Assembly (NCBI RefSeq): GCF_009914755.1
Contig: NC_060925.1
DNA: 64,000 nucleotides
DNA from: the human T2T-CHM13v2.0 reference genome, Homo sapiens
Reading direction: 5' to 3' (one strand)
Under the pieces are notes generated by a model. That model ran no database searches and was not told the origin of the DNA. It saw nothing but the letters and a program-made list of their open reading frames with translations. Of this stretch, positions 6,311 to 57,867 are shown in pieces. Numbering within the stretch: position 1 is the first letter of the stretch; every line of letters begins with the position of its first letter. Made by a program: the position numbers and the translations under genes.

Positions 6311-6715
<405 letters not shown>

Positions 6716-6851
6716 TTAGTTTCTATAACTAAGATATTTTGGCTGTTCTTTGGTAATATCTAAGAAGAATAATTGCAATATTATTCTTTTTTAGTGATGC
6801 AAAATTACAAATACTGCAGTGGTACTTATTTACTCATTTATATTGTAGCTA

Positions 6852-7077
6852 CAAGTTGAGTGTTCCTTATCCAAAATGCTTAGGACCAGAAGATTTTAAT
6901 ATTTTGGATTATTTTTGGATTTTTTGGAATACTTTCATTTTATTTACTGGTTGAGCATTCCTAATCAGAAATGTTCATTGGAGCATTTCCTTTGAGCATC
7001 ATGCTGTCACTCAAAAACTTTTGGATTTTGGAATGTTTCAGATTTTGGAGCATTTCAGATTAGGGATGCTCAATCTG
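6852..7077. mobile_element. MER46/Tigger4-type non-autonomous DNA transposon
   Basis: Terminal inverted repeats CAAGTTGAG..CCTTATCC / GATTAGGGATGCTCAATCTG and internal GGATTTT repeats. Confidence 0.7.
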
Positions 7078-7166
7078 TGGAACGTTAGTTTATGTTAAAG
7101 CTACATTTTTGTTTTTATTTTGCTTAGTGTTTTGACTTAATCATCTATGTTAAGAACCTAATTCTT

Positions 7167-7565
<399 letters not shown>

Positions 7566-7769
7566 TTAGTCATTTGTTTTGTGTATTTTATACCTTTTAA
7601 ACATCAGCAACAACTTTTTATTTCAGTTGGCCTTTGGCTTGGAGAGTCTAATAATAACATTAATTTATGGGGGTGTTGGGTGGGCAGCAGTTTATAGTTT
7701 TTTAAGACTTCATTGATTATTGTGATTCTTGCCTGTCTGAGAAATGGTGCTGTTAATTAGCAGTACAGA

Positions 7770-7940
7770 AATCTGGACAATCATTAGAATCATGTAGAGA
7801 ATTTAAAGGCAGTAACAACCATACTCCCTAACCCTACTCTAATCTCTTGAATCAGATCTCTGGAATGAGGCCCAGAAATTTGTGTTTTTTGAAAACACTC
7901 CAAATGATTCTGACAGTACCAAGGTTTGAGAACCATTGGT
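7770..7940. mobile_element. MER5-like hAT MITE
   Basis: ATTAGAATCA...TGATTCTGA...AAGGTTTGAGAACCATTG. Confidence 0.55.
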
Positions 7941-8287
7941 TTATGTACTCTAAAATCTTTACTTAAGTCAGGGAATTAGAAATCTCCTTGTTCTTGGACT
8001 GAGTCATATTCCCTTTTTACTCCTATTAAATTGATTTCACGAATACTACTACTAATCTAATGATTTTTGAATACTTAAGCAGTGCATTTCACATTTTTGG
8101 GTTCAGAGAGATTAAGTATCTTGTCTAAAACTACTTCATAGTAAGTGGCAGAGTGATATAAATTCAGATATTTCTGTATCCAGAGCCCTTATTCTTTACC
8201 ATGAATATTATACTACCTTTTATTGAATTTTGTTGAGAAGGCAGCCATCAGTGTATGTGCAGAGAGATTATTAAAAAAAAAATCCTC

Positions 8288-8618
<331 letters not shown>

Positions 8619-9739
8619 TTACCATAAAGCTGTTAAGAATATTGCTGATTGCATTATCGTGCTATTCTCTGTGGGACTCATGGAAGAAATTACTCTTTAG
8701 CTTTTTTATAGTATAGAAACTGCGTTTTGTATGACTGTTTATGTTTCTCATTTTGCACTTGCTGCTAGAAAACTTAAAGTCAGATTTCTGGTTCACTGTT
8801 AGCAAATGTATAGGATTTTTTGTCTGCATTTTGTTTACAAATTTTATTCTTAGTATCATCTTAGATTTGTCTATTTCTTTTTTTCATCTCTTTTATAATT
8901 ATTGTATCTTGCTCTGTTATCTTTATGTTGCTTTAGATGGAAGTGTAAAGTAATTAACAAGTGATTTTGAACCATTTTATTTTATTCTGGTCAAAAATCT
9001 TTCTGAAAGATTTTTGAATTTGGGCAAGAAAGGATCTTATAATTTGGAACATTATCTGTGTGCCAAGCACTTTGCTAGATGTTCTTTTATTTTTTATTTT
9101 ACTTTCATGCCGGCTCTGCGAGATAAGTAGTGGTATTCCCATTTTACAGAAGGTGAAACTTAAGGTTAACTTTTGTCATGTAAAGCTAAACTCTGATCTA
9201 GATTTGTGTGACTCCAAAACTTTTTTTATATGCCTCTAATGGATGTAATTTACCTAGAGATTTATTAACCCTCTAGTGGGGGTCGTTTCCATCTTCAACA
9301 AGCATTTATAAAATACTTTATAGAAAGCACTGTGCCTAGTTCTGGGTATACATCCCCAACTGCCTTGTAGAAATTGCTACACTGGATAGGATGTCTTAAC
9401 TTGAGCTTAACGTGTATTTGAACAGACATTTGTATTAGTCTGTGGTCCTGGTAGGAAACAGTACTCAAAAGGCTTAACTGAGGAGTTTTAAATAAACTTT
9501 TTATAAAGGTGTGGGCCTGGTCTGTGGAGCCAGCAGTGGTGGATGGTGCATTACCCTAGAGCTAGTAACAGTTGGGAGCTGCTAGTAGTTGGGCCTTAAG
9601 GGCAAGGAGAGGCATTGGTTACTAGCCCCCTAAGCAGTAGCTGTAGGCAGAAAGGGCTGCGTGACGGGATCTATGGCCTTTAGTAGGGGAATATAGGAAA
9701 TTTACAGCAGAGTGGTGGAGGAATAAAAACTTGGATTTC

Positions 9740-37443: not shown

Positions 37444-38844
37444 TGAGAAGTGAATCTACTTCTAGGGCCCCAAGAGAATCACTGTATTATACAGAGTGAA
37501 AAAGTAAATACTGGTAAGAATGATCCTGCACCTTCAAGAAAATAATCAGATTATTTTAAAGAAGGCAGAGAATATAACAGTGTTTCTCAAAATGTTTAAA
37601 AAGTCTAATCTGTCCTTTAATCTAGCATTTTCATTTCTAAACTTTCCTGCAGAAAAATACAAGTGAGCAAAGGTGTTTGCACAAAACTCTTCATTGCAGG
37701 AAAAAAAAAAAGTTTCTGGTTGTAAAAGTGCCTGTCAGTAGAAGAATGATGAAAAAGACTGTGGTAGATAAAGTTTTAAAAAAATCAGGTGTACCAGCAT
37801 TTTAAAATTTAAAAGCCTTATTCATCAGGTTGAATGATGAATGTGCAGTAAGAACTGAATGTACAGTAACATGATTTTATTGCTTACTTGTGTTTGTATA
37901 TACAGTTACATATAAAATTTGTATGTATTCTGAAGAGGTCTAGAAGAGTACACCCAGATTATGTTACAATGATTACCGTTGTGGAACCAGAGTAGGGAAT
38001 GATAAGGGAAGGAACTTTTTATTTCATACACTTTTGAATTGTAGTCTTTTCAATGATTGTGTATTACTTTTGTAATTTAAAACACTTGTTAAGAAGAGGA
38101 TATGCTTCAAAAGAGATTCCTATCACAAATTATAAAATAAAAATTGATAATTTATAAGATTAAAAAAAACTTCAGTAATGTGGAATATTTAACTGTCCAG
38201 GACAACTTAGACCTCAAAGCTTTTGAGATGGCCAGGGTTTTGCTAGTGTAACAGGACTCATCTAATCAAATGGCAGACTTGTTTGCCTTCTCTCTGTTCT
38301 GAGACTGATAATAACCATTAGAATTTTCACTTACTTGCAAAAAAGGGATTTGAGCTCCAGTTCATTGAAACAAGGGTGGCTAGAACCCACAACTTCATGA
38401 TATGAAAAGTAGAATTTTGTATTGAGAAAGTGGGTTTTATTATGTACTGATGCTTTACAAAGGTGATTTGAAGGAATGAAGCACACTTAAGGAATTTGGC
38501 ACATTTCCATTCTAAGGATGATTCTCAATAGCAGCGATTCTCAACAAGGGCAGAATTATTGGAGTGTTGAAGTATGAGGAGTAATGAAGAGTTGAGAGAA
38601 GGCATGTTTAATTTGAAATGATCTACATTGAGATTTGCTGCTTTGGATGACTACTTAGTAAATGATTGGATTATCAGCTGCTGTTTATAGTATGTCTTTT
38701 ATCCAAAGGGAAGAGGTTTGCCTTGTTTGTTTCCTCCTCTTTAATGGGAAAAATTCTTTTGGTTAACTCCCCTTATTTTTGCTAGTGCAGAGGATAATTT
38801 CTTTCATAGTGAGGCAGCACTTTTTTTTTTCTCCTAAATAATAT

Positions 38845-44102: not shown

Positions 44103-45343
44103 TTGATGTGTCTTCTTTCAGAGCATATGTTTTCCTAGAAATTTGGATTTGGTGGAAAATGAGAAGAACTTTGTGGACAGTGCTGTAGTTTTTCAGGTTG
44201 CAGGGTTGGCTTGAATGGAGTCTTTAGTGACCTGTGTATGGCATCTGAGGGCTCAGGATATTGGGGTTTGGGATGAGTCACCTATAGATGTGTGAGTTTT
44301 ACATACAGGGAGGCAAGAGGAATTTATTTTTAAAATTGCTTAGGACTACCCTGCATGTTCAAAATACAGTTATTTTCTTCCTCTTCCCCTTACCTCTTGT
44401 GTTACATGTGCTCTTCCTCCCAGAAGCTAGAGTTCAAATTAGTGTTATTTATGTGATGTTTAAGCTATTAAAGACTTCTATGGTTACCCTCTGTAGTACT
44501 CATAATTCTTCCAAGTATCAGAAGCCTAACTCAGATTGGTTTAAACAAAGAAAGGAATTTACTGGCTTATTTGAGGGAAAAATTTAGGGATCCAGGTACT
44601 TAGAGAAGTGTTTAGGATCTTTCTTCTTGGCTTTGCTTTTCTCTGTGTTGGTTTAATTTCCCAGTAGGCTCTTTTTCCGTGGCTTTAAGATTATGTCCTA
44701 TCAATTTAACAGCTTCAGCAGAAAGAGAGCATGCCTTCCTAAGAATTACAACAGAAATTTTAGGATTGACTTTCATTGGCCTAGATTAATGGACCTGGAT
44801 CAAATAAATACTCCTGGACCTTAATATGTGGTCACCGTGACCACAGGTTCATAGGCATGACAGTGGAGGAGCTGTATTTTAGGATATGTTAGGCTATACT
44901 AGAATGATAAATTCCAAATCCCAGGGACTAAACATAACTAAACATTTATTAACACTCTTAATCATGCAAAGTCAGCTACAAGTTCAGACAGTCCATGTGG
45001 TAACTCGAGGATCCATACTGTTCTTATCTTCATCTCATCATTCAACCTCCACAGTTGCTTCAGCAGAGAATGAGGGAGCCCAGAGGGTTGTACACAAGCT
45101 CTAAATGCTTCAGCCTGTACTTACACAGAGCTCATAGCCCCATGCAGAATTGGCCACGTCGTTCTACCAAACTGTTAGGGGGCTGGAAAGTGTGTGAAAT
45201 AACATGGCTTTTTGATGAACAGAAATGCATTTCCACAAGCTGTTACAAAAGAAGGGTAGTGATACAGGTAGGTAAAACGTGTCCCCTACAGACTGGGACC
45301 CTAAACAATGTTTAAAATGTTGATATATAAAATGTAGTCAATC

Positions 45344-46243
45344 GGAGGAGCCAAGATGGCCGAATAGGAACAGCTCCGGTCTACAGCTCCCAGCGTGAGC
45401 GACGCAGAAGACGGGTGATTTCTGCATTTCCATCTGAGGTACCGGGTTCATCTCACTAGGGAGTGCCAGACAGTGGGCGCAGGTCAGTGGGTGCACGCAC
45501 CGTGCACGAGCCCTGCTTGGGCGAGGCATTGCCTCACTCGGGAAGCGCAAGGGGTCAGGGAGTTCCCTTTCCTAGTCAAAGAAAGGGGAGACAGACGGCA
45601 TCTGGAAAATTGGGTCACTCCCACCCGAATACTGCGCTTTTCCGACAGGCTTAAAAAATGGCGCACCAGGAGATTATATCCCGCACATGGCTCGGAGGGT
45701 CCTACGCCCACGGAGTCTTGCTGATTGCTAGCACAGCAGTCTGAGATCAAACTGCAAGGTGGCAGCCAGGCTGGGGGAGGGGCGCCCGCCATTGCCCAGG
45801 CTTGCTTAGGTAAACAAAGCAGCCAGGAAGCTCAAACTGGGTGGAGCCCACCACAGCTCAAGGAGGCCTGCCTGCCTCTGTAGGCTCCACCTCTGGGGGC
45901 AGGGCACAGACAAACAAAAAGCAGTAACCTCTGCAGACTTAAAAGTCCCTGTCTGACAGCTTTGAAGAGAACAGTGGTTCTCCCAGCACACAGCTGGAGA
46001 TCTGAGAACGGGCAGACTGCCTCCTCAAGTGGGTCCCTGACCCCTGACCCCCAAGCAGCCTAACTGGGAGGCACCCCCCAGCAGGGGCAGACTGACACCT
46101 CACACGGCTGGGTACTCCAACAGACCTGCAGCCGAGGGTCCTGTCTGTTAGAAGGAAAACTAACAAACAGAAAGGACATCCACACCAAAAACCCATCTGT
46201 ACATCACCATCATCAAAGACCAAAAGTAGATAAAACCACAAAG
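45344..46243 (+). promoter_or_regulatory. L1 5'UTR with internal sense promoter (YY1 site near the 5' end) and antisense promoter
   Basis: CAAGATGGCCG YY1 motif is intact and the region is relatively CpG-rich. Confidence 0.75.
45484..45792 (-). CDS. L1 ORF0-like antisense ORF (102 aa)
   Basis: MAGAPPPAWLPPCSLISDCCASNQQDSVGVGPSEP... matches the N-terminus of primate L1 ORF0. Expression is unknown. Confidence 0.55.
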   Translation of the reverse strand: MAGAPPPAWLPPCSLISDCCASNQQDSVGVGPSEPCAGYNLLVRHFLSLSEKRSIRVGVTQFSRCRLSPLSLTRKGNSLTPCASRVRQCLAQAGLVHGACTH

Positions 46244-47257
46244 ATGGGGAAAAAACAGAGCAGAAAAACTGGAAACTCTAAAAAGCAGAGCGCCTCTCCT
46301 CCTCCAAAGGAACACAGTTCCTCACCAGCAACGGAACAAAGCTGGACGGAGAATGACTTTGATGAGCTGAGAGAAGGCTTCAGATGATGAAATTACTCCA
46401 AGCTACAGGAGGACATTCAAACCAAAGGCAAAGAAGTTGAAAACTTTGAAAAAAATTTAGAAGAATGTATAACTAGAATAACCGGTACAGAGAAGTGCTT
46501 AAAGGAGCTGATGGAGCTGAAAACCAAGGCTCAAGAACTACGTGAAGAATGCAGAAGCCTCAGGAGCCGATGGGATCAACTGGAAGAAAGGGTATCAGCG
46601 ATGGAAGATGAAATGAATGAAACGAAGCGAGAAGGGAAGTTTAGAGAAAATAGAATAAAAAGAAACGAACAAAGCCTCGAAGAAATATGGGACTATGTGA
46701 AAAGACCAAATCTATGTCTGATTGGTGTACCTGAAAGTGACGGGGAGAATGGAACCAAGTTGGAAAACACTCTGCAGGATATTATCCAGGAGAACTTCCC
46801 CAATCTAGCAAGGCAGGCCAACATTCAGATTCAGGAAATAAAGAGAATGCCACAAAGATACTTCTCGAGAAGAGCAACTCCAAGACATATAATTGTCAGA
46901 TTCACCAAAGTTGAAATGAAGGAAAAAATGTTAAGGGCAGCCAGAGAGAAAGGTCGGGTTACCCTCAAAGGTAAGCCCATCAGACTAACAGCTGATCTCT
47001 CAGCAGAAACTCTACAAGCCAGAAGAGAGTGGGGGACAATATTCAACATTCTTAAAGAAAAGAATTTTCAACCCAGAATTTCATATCCAGCCAAACTAAG
47101 CTTCATAAGTGAAGGAGAAATAAAATCCTTTACAGACAAGCAAATGCTGAGAGATTTTGTCACCACCAGGCCTGCCCTAAAAGAGCTCCTGAAGGAAGCA
47201 ATAAACATGGAAAGGAACAACCAGTACCAGCTGCTGCAAAATCATGGCAAAATGTAA
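46244..47257 (+). pseudogene. L1 ORF1 (p40), disrupted
   Basis: ATG GGG AAA AAA CAG at 46244 with in-frame TGA TGA at 46385-46390. The downstream part is the 248-aa ORF 46511-47257. Confidence 0.9.
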
Positions 47258-47320
47258 AGAACATCAAGACTAGGAAGAAACTGCATCAACTAATGAGCAA
47301 AATAACCAGCTAACATCATA

Positions 47321-51446
<4,126 letters not shown>

Positions 51447-51999
51447 ACAATGAGAACACATGGACACAGGAAGGGGAACATCACACTCTGGGGACTGTTG
51501 TGGGGTGGGGGGAGGGGGAGGTATAGCATTGGGAGATATACGTAATGCTAGATGACGAGTTAGTGAGTGCAGCCCACCAGCATGGCACATGTATACATAT
51601 GTAGCTAACTTGCACATTGTGCACATGTACCCTAAAACTTAAGGTATAATAATAATAATAAAAAGAGATTTTAAAAATTACCATAATAATTGACCTATTA
51701 TCCTCTATGAGTCTCATCATCTGATAAAGATTTATTCTCAATTATATAAAAATCATCAGTTATTGTTAAATCAGAAACTCAGTATATGTAGACTCCTCCA
51801 GTCTCTTGGATTTACATATATAGTTTTAATTGTACAATATTATTGTAAAAGTTAATAGCCTTTCAGTGTATCTGATTTAAAATTACCACAGAGCATTGTG
51901 GGATTAAAGGAGTACTGTGTCAAGGGGGAAAAAAAAAAGTTTTCTCATCTTTTCTGTTGACACTGTGGCTGGCAGTATCTACTTTAAAATGGAAGTGAG

Positions 52000-52003
52000 A
52001 AAA
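52000..52003 (-). terminator. Pol III terminator (T4) of the tRNA-Cys gene
   Basis: TTTT on the minus strand, 9 nt after the discriminator base. Confidence 0.6.
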
Positions 52004-52012
52004 CATCCTGGA

Positions 52013-52085
52013 AGGGGGCACCCGGATTTGAACCGGGGACCTCTTGATCTGCAGTCAAATGCTCTACCACCTGAGCTATACCCCC
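52013..52085 (-). tRNA. TRC-GCA7-1: tRNA-Cys (anticodon GCA), 73 nt, intact cloverleaf
   Basis: Reverse complement GGGGGTA TA GCTC AGGTGGTA GAGC A TTTGA CTGCAGA TCAAG AGGTC CCCGG TTCAAAT CCGGG TGCCCCC T. All stems pair and the A and B boxes are intact. The locus symbol is from memory and less certain than the tRNA call. Confidence 0.95.
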
Positions 52086-52269
52086 TTTACCTGTTAAAAG
52101 CTCCCTCCTTGTCCACTTACGGTGACTCAATACATTCAAGTTCCACCCACAGGAGTTCTGGCAAGCTTTGTGTTCTAAAGCCCCACCTTCTTAATTGTCC
52201 ATCATCTGCTTTGGCTTGTCCCTTGACCACTAATAAACTGAAAGGGAACACTTGAAAAATGACATCCTG

Positions 52270-52452
52270 GGCTGGGCACGATGGCTCACGCTTGTGATCC
52301 CAGCGCTTTGGGAGGCTAAGGTGAGGTCAGGAGTTTGAGATCGGCCTGACTGACATGGTGAAACCCCGTCTCCGCTAAAAATACAAAAAAAATTAGCTGG
52401 GCGTGGTGGTGGGCACCTGTAATCCCAGCTACTAGGGAGGCTGAGGCAGGAG
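52270..52452 (+). mobile_element. AluS, 3'-truncated at GGCAGGAG, small internal deletion in the left arm
   Basis: Left arm, A-rich linker and partial right arm, then an abrupt A-tract. Confidence 0.85.
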
Positions 52453-52769
52453 AAAAAAAAAAAGTAGTCAATCTTTGAAACTACTCACTCTATGAAATGC
52501 TTTTTGCTTAAATTTGACTTGTTTAATGCAGTTCATGAGTTTGTGCTTCAAAACCATTGAACTTAAAAGTAATTTCTAGAAAACAACCCCATTTGTAGGT
52601 GGGAGACTGTGCCTGTCATAACCACACCGTTAAATCACCTGGTAATTGCTAAATTCCATGGATATTTTAGGTACCTGTTTTATTATCTTTGATGATAATA
52701 GACTGTTTCTGTCTTAGAACAACTTCTTCTTCACCCTGTTCTTCCTCTTCCTCCTCCTCTTTTCTTCTT

Positions 52770-56825: not shown

Positions 56826-57199
56826 AACCAGGATTCAAACAAAGGTAGTCCATTCTGGCTCCAAAGTCCATATGCTAGTCTCTTTCTGATTTTGAAAAGA
56901 TGAAATAAGGTAGCATTCTACTATAAGAATGTTAAGAACAGACATGGATGAAGGCAAAAAACAGTTACAAGTCAGAATATAATTCATTTGTCTAGAAAAG
57001 AGAAGGGTAAGGAGTCACATAATGATTTGCATGTAAAAGTGGAGTTATGGAGATGGTGACAAACTGTTCTTTTATTCCTTGAGTCAGCATCTGCTTACAT
57101 TTTACCTTAGTATTAAAGTCCTCAATTTGTGAAAAAAAAGCGATGGTATTTCTTTGAAATGTTTCTTTTTGCCCTGACTCAGTTTCACATACTGAGTGT

Positions 57200-57813: not shown

Positions 57814-57867
57814 AAATCTGGTTAAGAAGTACTGCCCCAAACGTTCATCCAAAGATGAAGAGCCACG
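57814..57867 (+). CDS. FNBP1L: FNBP1L coding exon (probably exon 3), (R)NLVKKYCPKRSSKDEEP(R)
   Basis: Acceptor cttcttcctatAG and donor GTAAAT. 54 nt, phase 2 to 2, in frame with the previous exon. Confidence 0.95.

What the first reader, a model, noticed from the sequence alone, without database searches (positions are those of the whole stretch)
51665..51940. Internal poly(A) signal and A-tract suggest two serial transduction rounds
Seen: inside the transduced segment, ATTAAA (51903-51908) lies 20 nt upstream of an A10 tract (51929-51938), the usual spacing between signal and cleavage site. Inference: round 1 carried ~265 bp (51665-51928) from a first locus and inserted ~75 bp downstream of a tRNA-Cys gene. 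Round 2 read through that tail and captured the tRNA plus part of an Alu. The element would then record a three-locus L1 pedigree.
Basis: partly seen in the sequence, partly recalled or inferred. Interest (0 to 1): 0.75.

Follow-up and report, generated by a model that had tools for sequence, protein, structure and literature searches.

The report
Two-step L1 transduction carrying tRNA-Cys
A full-length L1 retrotransposon on chromosome 1 drags behind it two pieces of foreign DNA picked up in two successive jumps (chr13 to chr15 to chr1), and the second piece delivered an intact copy of a tRNA-Cys gene that is now annotated as a human tRNA gene.

Summary
ATTAAA (51903-51908) lies 20 nt before A10 (51929-51938), inside a 787-bp non-L1 stretch. 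That stretch sits between a full-length L1 (45345-51665) and a terminal A11, and the whole unit is flanked by the duplication GTAGTCAATC.

Searching the window's own genome recovers the pedigree:
- **Tag 1 (51666-51928):** five copies. One, on chr13, is plain genomic DNA with no L1 and no A-tract.
- **chr15 intermediate:** a full-length L1 carries tag 1 plus A19 between its own 11-12-bp duplications. It sits 75 bp from a tRNA-Cys gene that is followed by a complete Alu.
- **Empty sites:** L1-free paralogues on chr14 and chr17 run straight across the chr15 insertion point.
- **Window copy:** it reproduces the chr15 arrangement, including the start of the chr15 duplication, and ends inside the Alu.
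- **Siblings on chr3:** one dead copy carries tag 1 only. Another carries tag 1 plus a shorter tag 2 ending after AATAAA.

Serial 3' transduction is a known process, so this is a new member of a known kind. The less ordinary point is that the annotated gene TRC-GCA7-1 is an L1-transduced, structurally intact tRNA gene copy. The chr13 source L1 is absent from this assembly, and outgroup primates could not be examined.

The parts
45335..45344 (+). 5' target-site duplication GTAGTCAATC of the chr1 insertion (preceded by AAAAT)
   Evidence: D16
45345..51665 (+). Full-length L1 body from 5' UTR start to short A-rich tail. It is 4.0% diverged from the chr15 parent, and its ORFs are now fragmented.
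47428..47729 (+). Later Alu insertion with A21 tail inside the L1, flanked by its own duplication (A)AAGAGTCAAGACCC. It is absent from the chr15 L1.
   Evidence: (D1, D4, D6)
51666..51928 (+). Tag 1: first transduced block, derived from chr13:33006322-33006580
51903..51908 (+). ATTAAA poly(A) signal used in round 1. It is present at the chr13 source and in all 4 retrocopies.
51929..51938 (+). Internal A10: remnant of the round-1 poly(A) tail (A19 on chr15, A14 on chr3b). Its last A's merge with the start of the chr15 target-site duplication.
51936..51946 (+). Carried-along copy of the 3' target-site duplication of the chr15 insertion (AAAGTTTTCTC)
51939..52452 (+). Tag 2: second transduced block, derived from the 3' flank of the chr15 L1
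52013..52085 (-). tRNA-Cys(GCA), annotated TRC-GCA7-1. It is full-length, scores 68.7 bits against Rfam tRNA, and has a T4 run 10-13 nt downstream on its own strand.
52232..52237 (+). AATAAA that was read through in this copy but used by the chr3:17.70 Mb sibling
52269..52452 (+). First ~184 nt of an Alu that is complete at the chr15, chr14 and chr17 loci
52453..52463 (+). Terminal A11 tail of the round-2 retrotransposition
52464..52473 (+). 3' target-site duplication GTAGTCAATC
   Evidence: D16

Best explanation
The 787 bp behind the L1 record two successive 3' transductions.

**Round 1 (inferred source, shown products).** An L1 sat at chr13:33.006 Mb, directly upstream of ...(A)GAAGAGATTT.... 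It was transcribed past its own weak poly(A) site. The transcript was cleaved about 16-20 nt after the ATTAAA in the chr13 flank. One such RNA inserted as a full-length L1 on chr15, 75 bp beyond the 3' end of a tRNA-Cys gene and in the opposite orientation. That insertion made an 11-12-bp target-site duplication.

**Round 2 (shown).** The chr15 element was transcribed through tag 1, its A-tail and its 3' duplication. Transcription continued across the antisense tRNA-Cys gene, past an AATAAA, and into a neighbouring Alu. This RNA inserted in an FNBP1L intron on chr1, which is the window. The target site was of the TTTT/A type and gave the duplication GTAGTCAATC.

**Consequences.** The internal ATTAAA-20 nt-A10 is the fossil poly(A) site of round 1. 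As a by-product, chr1 received a complete tRNA-Cys transcription unit: 183 bp of 5' flank, the gene, and 74 bp of 3' flank with a T4 terminator. Both full-length L1s are now inactive, with fragmented ORFs.
For: **The window unit is one retrotransposition event.** It reads L1, 787 bp, A11, bracketed by GTAGTCAATC.

**Tag 1 has exactly 5 genomic copies**, 5 of 5 candidates scored.
- chr13 is L1-free and has no A-tract. No young L1 lies within 4.8 kb on either side.
- The 4 retrocopies all join the L1 tail to the same chr13 base, and all switch to A's at the same point after ATTAAA.

**chr15 is the intermediate.**
- The L1 aligns to the window L1 over its full length.
- (G)AAAGTTTTCTC lies on both sides of L1 + tag 1 + A19.
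- chr14 positions 1-1492 align with the chr15 5' flank, and positions 1501-2077 with the chr15 3' flank.
- chr17 reads ...GTTGAAAGTTGCTTCATC... without interruption across the site.

**Direction of copying.** The Alu is complete on chr15, chr14 and chr17, but is cut at about nt 184 and followed by A11 in the window.

**Quartet test over 503 columns of tag 2.** 11 sites group chr1 with chr15, 0 group chr1 with chr14, and 2 group chr1 with chr17.

**Siblings have their own duplications.**
- chr3:73.96 Mb carries tag 1 only, has a 5'-inverted and truncated L1, and the duplication AGAAC[A/T]TCTGGTTTCTC.
- chr3:17.70 Mb is 5'-truncated, carries tag 1 + A14 + tag 2 ending about 25 nt after AATAAA, and has the duplication AATACCACA.

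**Divergence is mutually consistent.**
- L1 bodies, chr1 vs chr15: 239 of 5996 sites, 4.0%.
- Tag 2 private changes: 13 on chr1 and 12 on chr15 in 503 columns.
Against: - **No source L1 on chr13.** The L1 that the model places there is not in this assembly. Round 1 therefore rests on the junction structure, not on an observed source element.
- **GGG versus GAG.** All four retrocopies read CAAGGG before the A's, whereas chr13 reads CAAGAG. This needs one substitution, on chr13 or on the source allele.
- **No canonical signal at the terminal poly(A) site.** Only AATACA was found in the 80 nt upstream of 52452, with 67 nt between it and the site. How the round-2 RNA ended there is unexplained.
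- **Parentage of the tag-1-only copy is ambiguous.**
  - One polarised site groups chr15, chr1 and chr3b (AAAGAG) against chr13 and chr3a (GAAGAG).
  - A T/A homopolymer boundary instead groups chr3a with chr3b.
- **The empty-site evidence for chr15 comes from human paralogues**, which are 80-92% identical. It does not come from an orthologous empty site in another primate.
Confidence: 0.92

Rival explanations
1. Single transduction. Both blocks and the A-run were already contiguous at one source locus, and the A10 is an ordinary genomic A-run that happens to follow an ATTAAA.
For: A-runs are not rare: the + strand of the window has 14 runs of A10 or more. ATTAAA is at chance frequency.
Against: The only locus where the blocks are contiguous outside the retrocopies is chr15. 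There, tag 1 + A19 is part of an L1 insertion bounded by target-site duplications. The paralogous chr14 and chr17 segments lack L1, tag 1 and the A-tract. On chr13, tag 1 runs on into unrelated sequence with no A-run.
Confidence: 0.01
2. Round 1 was not a read-through from an L1 on chr13. It was a chimeric retrocopy. Reverse transcription began on a polyadenylated chr13 transcript that ended after ATTAAA. It copied about 262 nt and then switched template to the 3' end of an L1 RNA. This created L1 + tag 1 directly on chr15, and round 2 then proceeded as in the best explanation.
For: No L1 is present at or near the chr13 site in this assembly. L1 chimeras with other RNAs are documented (10.1101/2025.02.02.635956; passages read). 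If the chr3:73.96 Mb copy is a daughter of chr15, this model needs no lost element.
Against: The junction lies exactly at the natural end of the L1 with its short A-rich tail. The chr13 sequence starts at a pyrimidine-run/purine step (bottom strand ...TTCT/G) of the kind an L1 endonuclease site would give (the endonuclease preference is recalled, not tested). The polarised site at the start of tag 1 suggests chr3a is a sister of chr15, not a daughter, so two independent events share the same junction. From recalled general knowledge, read-through transduction is common and most source insertions never reach fixation.
Confidence: 0.06
3. The chr1 copy arose from chr15 by DNA-level duplication or gene conversion rather than through RNA.
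For: The tRNA-Cys segment belongs to a family of DNA-level paralogues on chr14, chr15 and chr17.
Against: Homology to chr15 starts exactly at the L1 5' end and stops inside the Alu, where an A11 tail follows. The unit is flanked by a 10-bp duplication at an A-rich target. The chr1 flank 52464-52735 is single-copy.
Confidence: 0.01

Closest known systems
L1 3' transduction (read-through of the L1 poly(A) site and co-mobilisation of 3' flank). First described around 1999-2000 (recalled); summarised in the abstract of PMC9311842, seen in the search listing.
   Same: The L1 3' end is followed by unique non-L1 DNA, a downstream poly(A) signal, an A-tail, and target-site duplications around the whole unit. 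The tag matches the 3' flank of another L1.
   Different: Two tags lie in series here. The terminal cleavage site lacks a canonical hexamer.
Multigenerational L1 transduction cascades and transduction families (PMC13009371, passage read; PMC6425141, passages read)
   Same: A daughter keeps the tag of the grandparent locus and adds a second tag from the intermediate insertion. Siblings share tags, which allows a pedigree to be built.
   Different: The published cases read here are young L1 copies: polymorphic, germline or somatic in tumours and cell lines. This one is an old, fixed lineage with about 4% parent-daughter divergence. Its intermediate is still present, and its founder site is empty in the assembly.
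Gene duplication by retrotransposon-mediated transduction (SVA-mediated duplication of a whole gene in primates; recalled, not read here)
   Same: A complete functional unit located 3' of the element is copied to a new locus.
   Different: Here the cargo is a Pol III tRNA gene carried in antisense within a Pol II L1 read-through RNA. No splicing or promoter capture is needed, because the tRNA promoter is internal.
tRNA/LINE-1 chimeric insertions (10.1101/2025.02.02.635956, passages read)
   Same: A tRNA sequence lies in antisense orientation inside the same TSD-bounded insertion as an L1.
   Different: Those chimeras mostly hold tRNA halves thought to come from tRNA molecules. Here the full gene comes with 183 bp and 74 bp of its chr15 genomic flanks, so it came from genomic read-through, not from a tRNA molecule.

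Membership tests
L1 3' transduction | Non-L1 sequence lies between the L1 3' end and the terminal poly(A), all inside one pair of target-site duplications | tested here: met
   L1 ends at 51665, 787 bp follow, then A11. GTAGTCAATC lies at 45335-45344 and 52464-52473.
L1 3' transduction | The transduced sequence is identical by descent to the 3' flank of a source L1 elsewhere | tested here: met
   Round 2: the chr15 full-length L1 is followed by the same sequence. 11 of 13 informative quartet sites group chr1 with chr15. Round 1: the chr13 flank matches at 98%, but no L1 is present there.
L1 3' transduction | A poly(A) signal lies 10-30 nt upstream of each acquired tail | tested here: inconclusive
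   Round 1: ATTAAA lies 20 nt before the A-tract. chr3b sibling: AATAAA lies about 25 nt before its tail. Window terminal tail: only AATACA, with 67 nt between it and the site.
Serial (multigenerational) transduction | An internal poly(A) remnant separates two tags that map to different loci | tested here: met
   A10 in the window, A19 on chr15, A14 on chr3b. Tag 1 maps to chr13 and tag 2 to chr15.
Serial (multigenerational) transduction | An intermediate element carries tag 1, its tail and its own target-site duplication, immediately followed in the genome by tag 2 | tested here: met
   On chr15, (G)AAAGTTTTCTC flanks L1 + tag 1 + A19. The 3' copy of that duplication is carried into the window at 51936-51946.
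Serial (multigenerational) transduction | An empty site exists for the intermediate insertion | tested here: met
   Shown by the paralogues chr14 and chr17, which are continuous across the site. An orthologous empty site in outgroup primates is not testable with these tools.
Functional tRNA gene (for TRC-GCA7-1) | Full cloverleaf with anticodon GCA, and a Pol III terminator downstream | tested here: met
   ARAGORN calls tRNA-Cys. Rfam tRNA model positions 1-71 of 71 match at 68.7 bits, against 72.4 for the chr15 parent. TTTT lies 10-13 nt downstream.
Functional tRNA gene (for TRC-GCA7-1) | Locus-specific expression and aminoacylation | not testable with these tools
   The only human paper found that names it uses it as a drawing template for fragments shared by many tRNA-Cys genes (PMC9681550, figure legend read).

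The most novel reading that the evidence does not exclude
L1 3' transduction acted here as a birth mechanism for a working tRNA gene. TRC-GCA7-1 on chr1 would be a retro-dispersed, still transcribed daughter of a chr15 tRNA-Cys gene. It was carried in antisense inside a Pol II L1 read-through RNA and is functional on arrival because tRNA promoters are internal. If this is general, some 'orphan' tRNA genes outside the big clusters would owe their position to L1 transduction.
Probability: 0.35. Interest if true: 0.55.

Novelty: new member of a known kind. Interest (0 to 1): 0.4.

Why it matters
The locus is a clean, fully resolved example of a three-locus L1 pedigree from an old, fixed lineage. 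The founder site, the intermediate, the final copy and two dead siblings can all be read in one genome.

It shows that internal signal-plus-A-tract fossils can be used to split composite tags. It also shows that source elements can vanish while their tags survive.

The wider point is that a RefSeq-annotated human tRNA gene owes its existence and location to L1 transduction. My four literature searches turned up no paper describing this route of Pol III gene dispersal. The searched library does not cover most subscription journals.

Tried and rejected
- **Third round.** The chr1 3' flank 52464-52735 is single-copy in the genome. The window element therefore left no tagged offspring.
- **chr3 copies as possible parents of the window copy.** Rejected. 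chr3b is 5'-truncated and lacks the Alu part. chr3a is 5'-inverted and truncated and lacks tag 2.
- **Raised mutation rate around the transduced tRNA, as a sign of germline transcription.** Against chr15 and chr3b, chr1 has 11 private substitutions in about 316 bp of non-Alu tag 2, compared with 6 and 7 for the other two. In the 4-way count over 503 columns, chr1 (13) and chr15 (12) are equal. There is no usable signal.
- **Selection on the tRNA.** There is 1 private change in 73 nt on chr1 and 1 on chr15, both in the D-loop. This has no statistical power.
- **L1 subfamily (L1PA3).** Not tested, because no reference consensus was available from a tool.
- **Cys-GCA-7-1 in the tTEscanR preprint.** The passage read lists it beside gene names such as Cys-GCA-4-29. 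I suspect these are from another species' gene set, so I did not use it as expression evidence.

Full report
**1. What is in the window**

One search shows the L1 3' end (...CTTAAGGTATAATAATAATAATAAAAA) stopping at 51665. After it come 787 bp of non-L1 DNA (51666-52452), an A11 run (52453-52463) and then GTAGTCAATC.

One search shows the same GTAGTCAATC at 45335-45344, directly before the L1 5' end (GGAGGAGCCAAGATGGCC...). One search reports the pair as family D16. The pre-insertion site would read ...TATATAAAATGTAGTCAATCTTTG.... That is an A-rich start of the kind L1 endonuclease targets give (this preference is recalled, not tested).

So L1 + 787 bp + A11 is one retrotransposition unit, that is, a 3' transduction. 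Inside it:
- tRNA-Cys(GCA) on the minus strand at about 52013-52085.
- AATAAA at 52232-52237.
- The first ~184 nt of an Alu at 52269-52452.

The hexamer alone is at chance level: 117 found against a shuffle mean of 103. A signal followed at 10-30 nt by A8 or more occurs only 3 times on the + strand and 0 times on the - strand of the window.

**2. The genome-wide copies**

The window's own assembly could be searched. The whole 787 bp, tag 1 alone (5 matches, 5 of 5 candidates scored) and the non-Alu part of tag 2 alone (40 of 66 candidates scored) gave the following. The remaining tag 2 hits were short tRNA-Cys gene matches.

| Locus | Content |
|---|---|
| chr1 (the window) | L1 + tag 1 + A10 + tag 2 with truncated Alu |
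| chr15:77.607-77.614 Mb | Both tags, 93% over all 787 nt |
| chr3:17.70 Mb ('chr3b') | Query positions 1-599, 92% |
| chr3:73.96 Mb ('chr3a') | Tag 1 only, 98% |
| chr13:33.006 Mb | Tag 1 only, 98% |
| chr14:67.17 Mb | Tag 2 only, 90% |
| chr17:39.70 Mb | Tag 2 only, 88-89% |

**3. The founder site, chr13**

On chr13 tag 1 is ordinary contiguous DNA...ACTCACAAGATATGACAGAAGAGATTTAAAAAATTACC...GGGATTAAAGGAGTACTGTGTCAAGAGAACACTGAATTTT....
- No L1 3' end lies upstream and no A-tract lies downstream.
- Within 4.8 kb on either side there are only L1 fragments of 68-70% identity and one Alu.

In all four retrocopies the L1 tail is joined to the same chr13 position, (A)GAAGAGATTT or AAAGAGATTT. The sequence turns into A's at the same point, CAAGGG + A(n), 16-20 nt after ATTAAA. 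This is what read-through from an L1 once sitting at that chr13 position would give.

The L1 itself is not in this assembly. The simplest reading (inference) is that the founder insertion never became fixed.

**4. The intermediate, chr15**

Oriented like the window, chr15 reads ...CAAGAGCAAGTTGAAAGTTTTCTC | GGGGAGGAGCCAAGTTGGCC..., which is the L1 5' end. About 6 kb of L1 follow and align to the window L1 over its full length, apart from the window's later Alu insert.

After the L1 come tag 1, then ...GTGTCTAGGG-A19-GG-AAAGTTTTCTC-ATCTTTTCTGGTGAC..., the tRNA-Cys gene, and a complete Alu that continues ...GAGGCAAGAGAATTGCTTGAACCCTGGGAGGCGGAGG... to its end.
- L1 + tag 1 + A19 is therefore bracketed by an 11-12-bp duplication, (G)AAAGTTTTCTC.
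- chr14 and chr17 are paralogues of the surrounding segment without any insertion.
  - chr14 positions 1-1492 align to the chr15 5' flank at 86.7%. Positions 1501-2077 align to the chr15 3' flank at 92.3%. 6.3 kb of chr15 lie in between.
  - chr17 reads ...GCAAGTTGAAAGTTGCTTCATCTTTTCAGG... straight across the site.
- These paralogues serve as empty sites.

The window copy carries the chr15 3' duplication along (AAAGTTTTCTC at 51936-51946). It stops in the middle of the Alu that is whole on chr15. This fixes the direction as chr15 to chr1.

In 503 aligned columns of tag 2, 11 sites group chr1 with chr15, 0 group chr1 with chr14, and 2 group chr1 with chr17.

**5. The siblings on chr3**
- **chr3a** has the last ~650 bp of L1 in direct orientation, preceded by an inverted 1.45-kb L1 segment. 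This is the form usually ascribed to twin priming (recalled). It carries tag 1, a long interrupted A-tail and the duplication AGAAC[A/T]TCTGGTTTCTC.
- **chr3b** is a 5'-truncated L1 (about 1.6 kb) with tag 1, A14, and tag 2 up to ...AATAAACTGAAAGGGAACACTTGAAAAATGACA, followed by an A-tail. It has the duplication AATACCACA and sits inside an older L1. It used the AATAAA that the window copy read through.

Neither can be a parent of the window copy.

Whether chr3a descends from the chr13 founder or from chr15 is open.
- The first base of tag 1 groups chr3a with chr13 (GAAGAG) against chr15, chr1 and chr3b (AAAGAG).
- A T/A homopolymer boundary groups chr3a with chr3b.
- All other differences in tag 1 are private to one copy.

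**6. Age and state**
- The chr1 and chr15 L1 bodies differ at 239 of 5996 aligned sites, 4.0%. Leaving out CpG sites gives 172 of 5790, 3.0%.
- Tag 2 has 13 (chr1) and 12 (chr15) private changes in 503 columns.
- This is about 2-2.6% per lineage. With commonly quoted primate rates (recalled) that is of the order of 10-20 million years. I did not calibrate it, and I did not test the label L1PA3.
- Both full-length elements now have only fragmented ORFs. The longest is 342 aa in the window and 314 aa on chr15.
- The window L1 was also hit later by an Alu (47428-47729) with its own duplication. That Alu is absent from chr15.
- The chr1 3' flank is single-copy, so there was no tagged third round.

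**7. The tRNA cargo**

The annotated gene TRC-GCA7-1 is therefore a transduced copy of the chr15 tRNA-Cys gene. It was carried in antisense with 183 bp of its 5' flank and 74 bp of its 3' flank.

| Copy | Rfam tRNA score | Note |
|---|---|---|
| chr15 (parent) | 72.4 bits | full model |
| chr14 | 69.5 bits | full model |
| chr1 (window) | 68.7 bits | full model, positions 1-71 of 71 |
| chr17 | 42.8 bits | full model |
| chr3b | 38.4 bits | model positions 5-66 only |

- The window copy keeps TTTT 10-13 nt downstream.
- The chr3b copy has lost the 3' side of its acceptor stem, and ARAGORN no longer calls it.
- chr1 and chr15 each have one private D-loop change.
- I found no locus-specific expression evidence.

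**8. What stays unexplained**
- The terminal cleavage at 52452 has no canonical signal. In the 80 nt upstream, the only hexamer from my recalled list is AATACA, with 67 nt between it and the site.
- If the duplication is read as the 15-mer AAAA[T/A]GTAGTCAATC, the untemplated tail is only about 4-6 A's.
- All retrocopies read CAAGGG where chr13 reads CAAGAG.

**9. Comparison with what is known**

Read-through 3' transduction and multigenerational cascades with two tags are established.
- PMC13009371 describes a reference L1 giving a germline insertion, which in turn gave a somatic insertion keeping the first tag and adding a second (passage read).
- PMC6425141 reconstructs a 14-member transduction family (passages read).

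This locus is a new, old and fixed member of that kind.

My searches found no paper on tRNA genes moved by L1 transduction. A preprint on tRNA/LINE-1 chimeras describes mostly antisense tRNA halves derived from tRNA molecules.

**10. Verdict**

Confidence in the two-round pedigree chr13 to chr15 to chr1 is 0.92. The main residual doubt concerns how round 1 joined L1 to the chr13 sequence: a lost source L1 (favoured) or template switching. Interest is moderate (0.4).

Noticed in passing
window 47413-47741: An Alu with an A21 tail (about 47428-47729) sits inside the L1 and is flanked by (A)AAGAGTCAAGACCC. It is absent from the chr15 parent L1, so it inserted after the chr1 copy was made. By recalled diagnostic stretches it looks like a young (Y-type) Alu.
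   Followed up: partly
L004 (chr14:67.17 Mb), L005 (chr17:39.70 Mb), L009 (chr15:77.61 Mb): A tRNA-Cys gene, about 1.5 kb of upstream flank, an Alu and a downstream microsatellite form a DNA-level paralogous segment present on at least three chromosomes at 80-92% identity. The chr17 copy's tRNA scores only 42.8 bits.
   Followed up: partly
window 52452-52463: The terminal poly(A) addition site lies inside the Alu right half with no canonical hexamer upstream. The nearest variant is AATACA, with 67 nt between it and the site.
   Followed up: partly
window 52066-52071 and the equivalent chr15/chr3b positions: The chr15-lineage tRNA-Cys copies carry one extra D-loop base relative to chr14 and chr17. 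chr1 and chr15 each changed a different base of what was probably a run of five identical bases, which chr3b still shows.
   Followed up: no
window 38136-38170 and 57112-57140: These are the two other places where AATAAA or ATTAAA is followed at 10-30 nt by A8. They may be tails of old retrocopies or chance. The second lies about 700 bp upstream of FNBP1L exon 57814-57867.
   Followed up: no
L012 (chr3:17.70 Mb) about 6671-8915: The chr3b sibling inserted into an older L1 (about 90% identical to the window L1) and splits it at about L1 position 5000.
   Followed up: partly
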